NCBI RefSeq assembly: GCF_002854065.1
Contig: NZ_CP024147.1
Length of the DNA stretch: 64,000 bases
Source of the DNA: Escherichia coli
GTDB lineage: Bacteria > Pseudomonadota > Gammaproteobacteria > Enterobacterales > Enterobacteriaceae
Direction: 5' to 3' (one strand)
Positions 56,801 through 59,800 of this stretch are shown here, piece after piece. Made by a program: the position numbers. Within the stretch, counting starts at the first letter, position 1, and every line of letters starts with the position of its first letter.

Positions 56801-59800
56801 TGCCAAAGCGTTACGTCTGGGCGTTGAAGATGTTTTGCTGAAACCAGTTAAAGATCTGAATCGCTTGCGCGAGATGGTTTTTGCCTGTCTCTATCCCAGC
56901 ATGTTTAATTCGCGCGTTGAGGAAGAGGAAAGGCTTTTTCGCGACTGGGATGCAATGGTTGATAACCCTGCCGCAGCAGCGAAATTATTACAGGAACTAC
57001 AACCGCCGGTTCAGCAGGTGATTTCCCATTGCCGGGTTAATTACCGTCAATTGGTTGCCGCGGACAAACCCGGCCTGGTGCTTGATATTGCCGCACTTTC
57101 GGAAAACGATCTGGCATTTTATTGCCTTGATGTAACCCGAGCTGGACATAATGGCGTACTTGCTGCCTTGTTATTACGCGCATTGTTTAACGGATTATTA
57201 CAGGAACAGCTTGCACACCAAAATCAACGGTTGCCAGAGTTGGGCGCGTTATTGAAGCAGGTAAACCATTTACTCCGTCAGGCCAATCTGCCGGGGCAGT
57301 TTCCGCTATTAGTTGGCTATTATCATCGCGAACTGAAAAATCTCATTCTGGTTTCTGCGGGTCTGAATGCGACGTTAAATACCGGCGAACACCAGGTGCA
57401 AATCAGTAATGGTGTTCCGTTAGGCACTTTAGGTAACGCTTATTTGAATCAATTGAGCCAGCGATGCGATGCCTGGCAATGCCAAATATGGGGAACCGGT
57501 GGTCGGCTGCGCTTGATGTTGTCTGCAGAATGAGCAAACGATAACGCGGGCTAAATTTGCATTACCAGCTAATGTCGGCTGGTGGTACTATCGTCGCCAT
57601 TCGTATAAGTAATTGTCTTAATTATGCTAACTCGCATCCTTTTCAGAACTTAGCCCCTCTGGGGTGCTGATATACTGGGATGCGATACAGAAATATGAAC
57701 ACGTTCAAAACACGAACAGTCCAGGAGAATTTAAATGGCTGCCATTAATACGAAAGTCAAAAAAGCCGTTATCCCCGTTGCGGGATTAGGAACCAGGATG
57801 TTGCCGGCGACGAAAGCCATCCCGAAAGAGATGCTGCCACTTGTCGATAAGCCATTAATTCAATACGTCGTGAATGAATGTATTGCGGCTGGCATTACTG
57901 AAATTGTGCTGGTTACACACTCATCTAAAAACTCTATTGAAAACCACTTTGATACCAGTTTTGAACTGGAAGCAATGCTGGAAAAACGTGTAAAACGTCA
58001 ACTGCTTGATGAAGTGCAGTCTATTTGTCCGCCGCACGTAACTATTATGCAAGTTCGTCAGGGGCTGGCGAAAGGCCTGGGACACGCGGTATTGTGTGCT
58101 CACCCGGTAGTGGGTGATGAACCTGTGGCTGTTATTTTGCCTGACGTTATTCTGGATGAATATGAATCCGATTTGTCACAGGATAACCTGGCAGAGATGA
58201 TCCGCCGCTTCGATGAAACGGGTCATAGCCAGATCATGGTTGAACCGGTTGCTGATGTGACCGCATATGGCGTTGTGGATTGCAAAGGCGTTGAATTAGC
58301 GCCGGGTGAAAGCGTACCGATGGTTGGCGTGGTTGAAAAACCAAAAGCGGATGTTGCGCCGTCTAATCTCGCTATTGTGGGTCGTTACGTACTTAGCGCG
58401 GATATTTGGCCGTTGCTGGCAAAAACCCCTCCGGGAGCTGGTGATGAAATTCAGCTCACCGACGCAATTGATATGCTGATCGAAAAAGAAACGGTTGAAG
58501 CCTATCATATGAAAGGGAAGAGCCATGACTGCGGTAATAAATTAGGTTACATGCAGGCCTTCGTTGAATACGGTATTCGTCATAACACCCTTGGCACGGA
58601 ATTTAAAGCCTGGCTTGAAGAAGAGATGGGCATTAAGAAGTAACATCCGTATCGGTGTTATCCACGAAACGGCGTTGAGCAATCGACGCCGTTTTTTTAT
58701 AGCTTATTCTTATTAAATTGTCTTAAACCGGACAATAAAAAATCCCGCCGATGGCGGGATTTTAAGCAAGTGCAATCTACAAAAGATTATTGCTTGATCA
58801 GGAAATCGTCGAGGGATTTACCTTGCTCATCCATTGCTTTTTTGATTACAGCTGGAGTACGGCCCTGACCAGTCCAGGTTTTAGTTTCGCCGTTTTCGTC
58901 AACGTAGCTATATTTTGCCGGACGCTGAGCACGTTTAGCTTTGGTGCCAGATTTAACGGCGGCAAGGCTATTCAGCAGTTCGTTCGGGTCAATACCGTCA
59001 GCGATCAGCATTTCGCGATATTGCTGCAGTTTACGAGTGCGCTCTTCAACTTCAGCAGCAGCCGCGCTTTCTTCTTCGCGACGTTCGTTAACAACAACTT
59101 CTAATTTTTCCAGCATTTCTTCCAGCGTTTCAAGTGTACATTCTCTTGCCTGCGCACGAAGAGTACGGATGTTGTTCAGAATTTTAAGTGCTTCGCTCAT
59201 TGTAGTAATCTCAAACTTATATTGGGGGGGGTTGTTGAGGTAATAATAGAGCCTTAAATTCAGTTGTGCAATAGCCAGGAATGTAAGGAATTCAACATTG
59301 TTCTTTATTTTGTGCCGCCAATAAATATCTTTTCATAAAATTAGCCAGAAAAGACGCGGCATATAGCCCTATTTGTACCGATGATTTCGCAGCTCGTGAG
59401 GTTAAAACTTCCTGATTCATGTCACATTTTATGGGGAGATTATCGTAGGCTGACGACCTTTCAGTCTTCTGTATTAGTCGTGTTTACGAGAATTCCCTAT
59501 TAAGCGAATGATGAAAAGTAGAACAGTCGCAATAAGAGCAGGGACTTAGTATTGCACTATCTCCTGGAGGTCAACAGAGGGCTATTACTTGCGCAACAGG
59601 TTAAAGATTGTGAATAGTTACCAGCAGTCATTTACCCGCTTATAACAAGCGAGGCAGTTGTAATGATAGCTCAGAAGGATTATGCAAGGCTTCGTAAGGG
59701 AGAACGCATATACCACTTCTGTGCATACTGTTGAGCTGAAAAACTGACGAATTATGATAAACTCCAGCCAACTTTATTTCATATCATTGAGGGCCTGTGG

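What the first reader, a model, noticed from the sequence alone, without database searches (positions are those of the whole stretch)
59221..59232. G8/C8 homopolymer tract in the hns 5' leader
An uninterrupted run of eight G (C on the hns coding strand) lies 21-28 nt upstream of the hns ATG. Homopolymer tracts of this length are prone to slipped-strand mispairing and, in a leader, could modulate translation initiation of a global regulator.
Basis: seen in the sequence. Interest (0 to 1): 0.25.

Follow-up and report, generated by a model that had tools for sequence, protein, structure and literature searches.

The report
Hotspot-built G8 run in hns leader
The eight-G run in front of the E. coli hns gene is real but is a rare strain-specific variant, most likely built by a known mutational hotspot that turns a T after a run of G into another G, and nothing here shows it acts as a regulatory switch.

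Summary
The G8 run is real, at 59224-59231 on the + strand (C8 on the hns strand). It lies 24-31 nt upstream of the hns ATG, not 21-28. That is +6..+13 of the 36-nt hns leader.

It is not the normal E. coli sequence:
- 5147 of 5424 complete-genome records carry GGGGTGGTTTG here.
- 243 carry GGGGGTGGTTTG.
- Only 3 carry a long G run: G7T3, G9T1 and G8T1.
- None carries the window's G8T2.

The series G4-T-GG-TTT, G7T3, G8T2, G9T1 is a chain of T-to-G changes immediately 3' of a G run on the leading strand. This is the published "GnT" hotspot (Cherry 2023; Horton 2025). G9T1 and G8T1 sit on almost the same local haplotype as the window, while G7T3 arose separately on a distant haplotype. The site is therefore hypermutable, mainly by run-extending substitution and only once by a length change.

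The tract is not in a promoter spacer or an ORF, so a one-base length change cannot switch expression by either classical route. Folding predicts no meaningful change in start-site accessibility. The interrupting base is conserved across genera despite the hotspot, which suggests long-run alleles are mildly selected against. This is a new instance of a known phenomenon, of low interest.

The parts
59224..59231 (+). G8 homopolymer (C8 in the hns mRNA, leader positions +13..+6). It is the derived allele of the usual GGGGTGG.
   Evidence: The ancestral state GGGGTGGTTTG is found in 5147/5424 E. coli records and in E. albertii and Salmonella.
59232..59233 (+). TT directly 3' of the G run. These are the remaining T substrates of the GnT hotspot. 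59232 is G in CUWW06 (G9T1) and is deleted in 100416 (G8T1).
59201..59236 (-). hns 5' leader, 36 nt: AACAACCCCCCCCAATATAAGTTTGAGATTACTACA. +1 is the A at 59236.
   Evidence: Sequence matched to the published promoter and TSS description in PMC7601328. The leader is highly conserved across Enterobacteriaceae.
59209..59212 (-). Putative Shine-Dalgarno core (GAGA), 8 nt upstream of the AUG. It is unchanged by the tract alleles.
   Evidence: Read from the sequence and invariant in the cross-species set. The assignment is an inference.
59237..59242 (-). Discriminator TACCTC (-6..-1).
   Evidence: PMC7601328 reports C at -4, -3 and -1.
59243..59248 (-). -10 hexamer TATTAT.
59266..59271 (-). -35 hexamer TTGCAC, with a 17-bp spacer.
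   Evidence: PMC7601328 gives a 17-bp spacer. One search reports the one-base-shifted TGCACA-16-TATTAT.
58787..59200 (-). hns coding sequence (137 aa).

Best explanation
The G8 run is a rare, derived, lineage-specific allele of a conserved C-rich block at +6..+13 of the hns leader. It is best explained as the product of a known replication-associated hotspot, the 'GnT motif', in which a T directly 3' of a run of three or more G on the leading strand mutates to G at a rate tens to more than a thousand times the baseline, rising with run length. Step 1 is shown. On the window's + strand the ancestral sequence is TT-GGGG-T-GG-TTT-G, and the T after G4 is a G4T motif. Step 2 is shown by alleles. 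T-to-G at that T fuses G4 and G2 into G7T3 (seen independently in strain BCE049). The next T gives G8T2 (this window), and the next gives G9T1 (close relative CUWW06). G8T1 (100416) needs one further single-base deletion. Step 3 is inferred. Each step lengthens the run and makes the next T more mutable, and the adjacent T3 supplies consecutive substrates. The proposed mechanism is slippage in the run, insertion of an extra G, realignment to give a G:A mispair, and escape from repair. Step 4 is inferred. The tract is a by-product of mutation bias and not a programmed switch. It sits downstream of the transcription start and upstream of the Shine-Dalgarno sequence, and it is predicted to be single-stranded in the mRNA. 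It leaves promoter, ribosome-binding site and start codon intact. Long-run alleles are rare and confined to tips of the tree, and the interrupting base is conserved across genera despite the hotspot. They are therefore probably neutral to mildly deleterious variants held at low frequency by mutation-selection balance.
For: Allele census in RefSeq complete E. coli:
- 5147 records have the K-12 allele and 243 have the +1G allele.
- Exactly 3 have a long G run and none has the window's allele.
- Metagenome contigs give 43 K-12, 1 +1G and 0 long-G.

Polarity: E. albertii, Salmonella and many other genera share ACCACCCC, so G8 is derived.

Type of change: every substitution in the series is T-to-G immediately 3' of a G run on the + strand.

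Strand:
- The + strand has GC skew +0.024 (z 4.3).
- In MG1655 the GGGGT is on the top strand at 1.29 Mb. I place that position in the clockwise replichore from my own knowledge. This makes it the leading strand, the orientation reported as 4-8 times stronger and required for potency.
- All five T/G polymorphisms at sites preceded by three or more G, among 425 variable sites, are on the + strand.

Hypermutability:
- Window versus CUWW06 shows one substitution in 2.5 kb, and it is in the tract.
- Window versus XJ34 shows 4 substitutions in 2.5 kb, 2 of them in the 11-bp block (about 1e-4 by chance).
- BCE049's G7T3 sits on a haplotype with 32 differences in 2.5 kb and 84 in 6.25 kb, so it arose independently.

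Literature:
- G runs of 3, 4 and 5 or more raise the T-to-G rate about 26-, 100- and over 400-fold in Salmonella. [quoted passage not shown]

No sign of a regulatory device: the C block is unpaired and the opening energy changes by 0.7 kcal/mol or less. There is no Rfam match. C runs of 2 to 8 occur at this position in other species.
Against: - The intermediate G7T3 was not found on the window's own haplotype, so the order of the two substitutions that made G8 is inferred.
- No reads were available. The exact lengths in the window, CUWW06 and 100416 could each be off by a base or a boundary call, and G runs are error-prone on several platforms.
- The sample is tiny (three database genomes plus the window), so rate claims are qualitative.
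- The GnT papers quantify runs up to '5 or more', so behaviour at n = 7-9 is extrapolated.
- 'Near-neutral' is not tested. The strong conservation of the leader and of the interrupting A argues that the change may have a phenotypic cost or effect.
- About 31 of the 5424 records carry some other, unresolved difference in the 76-mer.
Confidence: 0.73

Rival explanations
1. The tract is a contingency or tuning locus. The C8 run changes length by slipped-strand mispairing and thereby modulates hns translation or transcription.
For: The tract varies among near-identical haplotypes, including one length change (G8T1 in 100416). It lies in the initially transcribed region and leader of a global regulator. 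The K-12 leader can form a weak CAAAC/GUUUG stem that the window allele disrupts. The leader is under strong constraint, so changes could matter.
Against: The tract is not in an ORF or in the -35/-10 spacer, so a one-base change has no frame or spacing effect. Most of the variation is substitution, not length. Predicted ribosome-binding-site accessibility changes by 0.7 kcal/mol or less, and the C block is unpaired in all alleles. Only 3 of 5424 records have a long run, which is not the pattern of a maintained switch. There are no expression data.
Confidence: 0.08
2. The differences are a sequencing or assembly artefact. The apparent G8T2, G9T1 and G8T1 differences, or the G8 itself, are base-calling or polishing errors at a G homopolymer.
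For: G runs are a known source of platform-specific errors, as noted. The window and CUWW06 also differ by T7/T8 in a nearby T run, the kind of difference that polishing errors produce. No database genome has exactly the window's allele.
Against: A long G run at this exact site appears in four independent assemblies from different laboratories and countries, three of them on one local haplotype, so the long run itself is real. G8T2 versus G9T1 is a length-preserving substitution, not the indel typical of homopolymer miscalls. Cherry showed by several tests that GnT-type T-to-G calls are genuine mutations.
Confidence: 0.1
3. The change is an adaptive cis-regulatory change. The A-to-C changes in the leader were selected in this lineage because they alter the H-NS level, for example through promoter escape, mRNA stability or protein binding to the 5' end.
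For: The same lineage (window and CUWW06) also carries a private change at about -60 of the hns promoter (59296 C versus A). The leader is highly conserved, so changes are likely to have effects.
Against: The hotspot explains recurrence without selection. The alleles are at very low frequency and differ among closest relatives, so there is no sweep-like fixation of one allele. There is no functional evidence.
Confidence: 0.07
4. The run was imported by short-patch recombination from another enterobacterium that naturally has C7-C8 in its hns leader.
For: Atlantibacter subterranea has exactly AACAAACCCCCCCAAT, and Lelliottia nimipressuralis has C8.
Against: The flanks of the window are typical E. 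coli and nearly identical to genomes that carry the K-12-type tract (XJ34: 2 non-tract differences in 2.5 kb). No donor has the window's AACAACCCCCCCCAAT. A graded series G7, G8, G9 is not expected from an import.
Confidence: 0.02

Closest known systems
GnT mutational hotspot motifs (Cherry 2023, Genome Biol Evol evad087 / bioRxiv 10.1101/2022.10.28.514265; Horton, Cherry, Waugh and Taylor 2025, Mol Biol Evol msaf183)
   Same: A run of G followed by T on the leading strand. The observed changes are T-to-G and extend the run. Recurrence is independent (BCE049 versus the window lineage). The mutations cluster far above the flanking rate. Cherry anticipated further extension of the run once it has lengthened.
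   Different: Here three consecutive extension steps (G4T to G7, G8, G9) are seen at a single natural locus, fed by an adjacent T3 run, and reach lengths (7-9) beyond those quantified in the papers. The site is non-coding, in the leader of a global regulator. No rate was measured here.
Homopolymer-based phase variation (contingency loci) of Neisseria, Haemophilus, Campylobacter and Bordetella
   Same: A G/C homopolymer of about 8 nt close to the start of a gene, with allelic variation among close relatives.
   Different: The tract is not inside an ORF or a promoter spacer. The variation is mainly substitution rather than reversible length change. The allele is rare in the species instead of being maintained. 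No on/off phenotype is known.
Reiterative transcription / transcript slippage control (pyrBI, codBA, upp; A/T runs in elongation)
   Same: A homopolymer within the first 13 transcribed bases. While the run is being transcribed the RNA:DNA hybrid would be largely rC:dG homopolymeric.
   Different: The known initiation-phase cases use runs that start at or next to +1 and respond to UTP or CTP pools. Known elongation slippage needs long A/T runs. Here the run starts at +6, is C in the RNA, and lies in an untranslated region where transcript length heterogeneity has no frame consequence.

Membership tests
GnT mutational hotspot | A run of three or more G immediately followed 3' by T. | tested here: met
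   The window has G8-TT at 59224-59233. The ancestral allele has TT-GGGG-T-GG.
GnT mutational hotspot | The mutation observed is T-to-G at that T and lengthens the run. | tested here: met
   59228 T/G, 59231 T/G and 59232 T/G are all of this type. The outgroups give the polarity.
GnT mutational hotspot | [quoted passage not shown] | tested here: met
   The + strand GC skew is +0.024, z 4.3. The motif is on the top strand of MG1655 at 1.29 Mb. That this position lies in the clockwise replichore is from my own knowledge. Five of five GnT-type polymorphisms in the region are on the + strand.
GnT mutational hotspot | A rate far above that of neighbouring sites, with independent recurrence. | tested here: met
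   There are three alleles on near-identical haplotypes and an independent G7T3 on a distant haplotype. This is qualitative only, because no rate was measured.
GnT mutational hotspot | The calls are genuine mutations rather than base-calling errors. | not testable with these tools
   No reads were available. Support is indirect: four independent assemblies and the published controls.
Phase-variable homopolymer (contingency locus) | The tract lies in an ORF or between promoter elements, so a one-base change switches expression. | tested here: not met
   The tract is at +6..+13, downstream of the TSS and upstream of the Shine-Dalgarno sequence and ATG.
Phase-variable homopolymer (contingency locus) | Frequent reversible length changes among close relatives or within a culture. 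| tested here: inconclusive
   One 1-nt length difference was seen (100416). The other changes preserve length. There are no population or read data.
Phase-variable homopolymer (contingency locus) | The tract is maintained in the species or lineage. | tested here: not met
   Only 3 of 5424 records have a long run, and 0 of 44 metagenome contigs.
Structured 5'-UTR regulator (riboswitch, thermometer or leader family) | A conserved secondary structure that involves the element and occludes the ribosome-binding site, or a match to a described family. | tested here: not met
   The C block has a pairing probability of 0.14 or less in all alleles, and the opening energy changes by 0.7 kcal/mol or less. 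No Rfam match overlaps the leader even at E <= 1.
Reiterative-transcription control | A homopolymer at or adjacent to +1 that allows slippage during initiation. | tested here: not met
   The run begins at +6 after AACAA.

The most novel reading that the evidence does not exclude
The GnT hotspot in the hns leader may act as a mutation-biased tuning knob for a global gene silencer. Recurrent A-to-C changes at the 5' end of the hns mRNA (C7, C8, C9) would alter H-NS dosage through promoter escape, 5'-end-dependent mRNA decay or protein binding. The lineage of this window, which also carries a private -60 promoter change, would have retained them because a different H-NS level is advantageous there. 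The cross-genus conservation of the interrupting A despite the hotspot shows that this position is visible to selection, so some phenotypic effect is plausible. An adaptive role is not excluded, but nothing here supports it.
Probability: 0.07. Interest if true: 0.6.

Novelty: new member of a known kind. Interest (0 to 1): 0.22.

Why it matters
This locus is a clean natural example of a G run being lengthened stepwise by the GnT hotspot, from G4T through G7 and G8 to G9, inside the regulatory DNA of a global regulator. It cautions against reading every G/C homopolymer near a gene start as a phase-variation device. The ancestral G4T motif has persisted across genera in the hotspot orientation, which points to purifying selection on the 5' end of the hns leader. 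That part of the leader has, to my knowledge, no assigned function, so the rare long-run alleles are ready-made natural mutants for testing it. For genome annotation and variant calling, this site should be treated as hypermutable and also as error-prone.

Tried and rejected
- Chance or composition: G7 matches are not enriched over dinucleotide-preserving shuffles, so the 'unusual run' argument rests on allele rarity and not on statistics of the window.
- RNA structure: I folded six leader alleles with 60, 120 and 300 nt of coding sequence. The C block is unpaired and accessibility changes are negligible. Only a weak 5-bp stem is lost.
- Known RNA families: there is nothing over the leader. 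The only hits are two sub-threshold matches in the galU-hns terminator region.
- Second promoter using the tract as a spacer: the scan found only the known -10 and -35 pair. I rejected my by-eye TTACCT-N16-TATAAG candidate.
- Metagenome scan for long-G alleles: there were none. The control scan worked, with 44 contigs.
- Hypothetical next allele (G11): it is absent. This query also separated the 3 long-G genomes cleanly from the other 5421 records.
- Literature on an hns-leader homopolymer or on hns 5'-UTR translation control: nothing specific was found.
- mutT-type mutator origin, considered because the changes are A:T-to-C:G: rejected. The other 18 or so differences from CUWW06 are ordinary mixed substitutions.
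- Not resolved: about 31 of the 5424 records differ from both major 76-mers in some other way. Any allele within one edit of G8T2 would have shown up, and one search leaves no other long-G allele among them.

Full report
**Observation.**
- The window reads ...CATTGTAGTAATCTCAAACTTATATT-GGGGGGGG-TTGTTGAGGTAATAATAG... on the + strand, and the G8 occupies 59224-59231.
- It is the only G or C run of 7 or more in the 64 kb.
- The ORF 58787-59200 on the minus strand encodes the 137-aa H-NS protein. Every matching RefSeq record annotates it as hns.
- The tract is therefore C8 on the hns sense strand, at -24..-31 from the A of the ATG.
- A single such run is not more than composition predicts: 2 overlapping G7 matches against 4.5 +/- 3.2 in shuffles.

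**Position in the transcription unit.**
- Brandi et al. 2020 (PMC7601328) describe the hns promoter with C at -13, a -10 hexamer with A at -8, a discriminator with C at -4, -3 and -1, and a 17-bp spacer.
- This fits TTGCAC (59271-59266), N17, TATTAT (59248-59243), TACCTC and A(+1) at 59236 on the minus strand. The consensus scan finds the same -10 hexamer.
- The leader is 36 nt (AACAACCCCCCCCAAUAUAAGUUUGAGAUUACUACA) and the tract is +6..+13.
- The tract is thus downstream of the promoter core and upstream of the Shine-Dalgarno-like GAGA.

**This is not the usual E. coli sequence.**
- K-12, B and most other strains read ATT-GGGGTGGTTTG-TTGAGG here.
- Among 5424 matching records of RefSeq complete E. 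coli genomes, 5147 have the exact K-12 76-mer and 243 have a +1G variant, GGGGGTGGTTTG.
- None has the window's 76-mer.
- Only three carry a long G run: BCE049 with G7T3, CUWW06 with G9T1, and 100416 with G8T1, which is one base shorter.
- A query built as the hypothetical next step (G11) separated exactly these three from the other 5421 records.
- About 31 records differ from both major 76-mers in ways I did not resolve. None of them carries a long G run.
- In metagenome contigs the site reads K-12-type 43 times, +1G once and long-G never.
- E. albertii, Salmonella and many other genera share ACCACCCC on the sense strand, so the K-12 form is ancestral and G8 is derived by two T-to-G changes, at 59228 and 59231.

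**Relationships of the long-run genomes.**
- The window is about 99.95% identical to CUWW06 over all 64 kb. There are about 18 ordinary substitutions outside a repeat region.
- In the 2.5 kb around hns, CUWW06 differs from the window by one substitution, 59232 T-to-G in the tract, and one T7/T8 length difference.
- In the same 2.5 kb, 100416 differs by three substitutions plus the one-base loss in the tract.
- XJ34, the closest genome with the K-12-type tract, differs by four substitutions, two of them in the tract.
- BCE049 differs at 32 positions on both sides of the tract, and at 84 in 6.25 kb.
- Three alleles therefore sit on essentially one local haplotype, and G7T3 arose separately.
- Two of four substitutions falling in an 11-bp block of a 2.5-kb comparison has a chance probability of roughly 1e-4.
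- The site mutates far faster than its surroundings, or is miscalled far more often (see the artefact rival below).

**Mechanism.**
- Every substitution in the series G4-T-GG-TTT, G7T3, G8T2, G9T1 is a T-to-G change immediately 3' of a G run on the + strand.
- This is the behaviour described by Cherry (bioRxiv 10.1101/2022.10.28.514265, published as Genome Biol Evol 2023).
  - T-to-G rates rise about 26-, 100- and over 400-fold after G3, G4 and G5 or longer in Salmonella, and the effect is nearly as strong in E. coli.
  - The effect is 4-8 times stronger when the GnT is on the leading strand, and several controls exclude sequencing error.
- Horton et al. 2025 (PMC12344412) confirmed it experimentally and showed that the flanking nucleotides matter: A, then T, then C at the 5' position, and C, then G, then T, then A at the 3' position. 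They also showed that leading-strand orientation is required.
- They proposed slippage in the run, addition of an extra G, realignment to a G:A mispair, and escape from repair.
- The ancestral motif here, TT-GGGG-T-GG, has favourable flanks, with 5' T and 3' G.
- The + strand of the window is the leading strand.
  - Its GC skew is +0.024, z 4.3.
  - The motif is on the top strand of MG1655 at 1.29 Mb. That this is the clockwise replichore is my own knowledge.
- The adjacent T3 supplies consecutive substrates, so the run can extend by up to three more bases.
- G8T1 needs one further single-base deletion, either of a G from G9T1 or of a T from G8T2. Its origin cannot be decided without reads.

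**Function.**
- The tract is not in an ORF or a promoter spacer, so the classical routes by which a homopolymer switches a gene are not available.
- Six leader alleles were folded with 60, 120 and 300 nt of coding sequence.
  - The C block is unpaired in all of them (pairing probability 0.14 or less).
  - The cost of opening the ribosome-binding region differs by 0.7 kcal/mol or less.
  - The only change is the loss of a weak CAAAC/GUUUG stem.
- No Rfam family matches the leader.
- In 119 species-representative hns leaders the longest C run at this position ranges from 2 to 8. Lelliottia nimipressuralis has C8, and Cedecea neteri, Cedecea davisae and Atlantibacter subterranea have C7. Long runs are therefore compatible with a working hns gene.
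- The leader is otherwise almost invariant across genera.
- The A that interrupts CCACCCC is retained in most Enterobacteriaceae, although its complement is the T of a leading-strand G4T hotspot.
- As Cherry argues in general, a hotspot motif that persists implies selection against its mutant.
- The simplest reading is therefore mutation-selection balance. Frequent T-to-G mutation creates long-run alleles that are neutral to mildly deleterious and stay rare and young.
- I could not test expression.

**Rivals.**
- Contingency or tuning locus: not supported by position, allele frequencies or folding, but not excluded without reporter data.
- Artefact:
  - The existence of a long G run in this lineage is secure, because four independent assemblies show one.
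  - The exact G8T2, G9T1 and G8T1 calls need reads.
  - The length-preserving nature of G8T2 versus G9T1 argues for real substitution.
- Adaptive cis-regulatory change: possible. The window and CUWW06 also share a private -60 promoter change at 59296, but nothing supports selection.
- Import from another species: contradicted by the E. coli-typical flanks.
- mutT-type mutator origin: contradicted by the ordinary spectrum of the other differences.

**Verdict.** The 'modulates translation' part is unsupported. This is a new natural instance of a known mutational phenomenon in a noteworthy place, and its interest is low.

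Noticed in passing
window 59296: The window and CUWW06 have C here (hns strand AATGTTGAAT, about -60 from the hns TSS). 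100416, XJ34, BCE049, 55989 and MG1655 all have A (AATTTTGAAT). This is a second lineage-private change in hns upstream regulatory DNA, and it breaks an A/T run.
   Followed up: partly
window 58684-58691: The T run after the galU terminator hairpin is T7 in the window and T8 in CUWW06. The difference could be real slippage or a homopolymer miscall, and it bears on how far single-base run lengths in these assemblies can be trusted.
   Followed up: no
window 53161-53537: The ~178-bp tyrT/rtT repeat unit is present in more tandem copies in the window than in CUWW06. Copy number also differs among 100416, XJ34, 55989 and MG1655 according to their rtT annotations.
   Followed up: no
window 22414-22420: About 197 bp of an autotransporter pseudogene remnant next to an IS1 in CUWW06 is missing from the window. 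This looks like an IS1-adjacent deletion.
   Followed up: no
window 56035 and 58064: Two further T/G polymorphisms directly after GGG on the + strand occur among the compared genomes, and none on the - strand. This fits the leading-strand GnT bias.
   Followed up: partly
window 59212-59234 (- strand; leader +3..+25): The K-12-type leader can pair CAAAC (+3..+7) with GUUUG (+21..+25). Species with CAAGC keep the pairing through a G-U wobble. The window (CAACC) and CUWW06 (CACCC) lose it. The stem is weak, and its conservation cannot be separated from primary-sequence conservation.
   Followed up: partly
window 60422-60721 (tdk-adhE intergenic): MG1655, 55989 and BCE049 carry an IS remnant (ISZ/insZ in MG1655, an IS4-family pseudogene in the other two) between tdk and adhE. 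The window, CUWW06, 100416 and XJ34 lack it.
   Followed up: no
L028 (Lelliottia nimipressuralis), L049/L089 (Cedecea), L109 (Atlantibacter subterranea): The hns leaders of other genera carry fixed C7-C8 runs at the same position, while the rest of the leader and the -10 region (CTCTATTATTA) are almost invariant across Enterobacteriaceae.
   Followed up: partly
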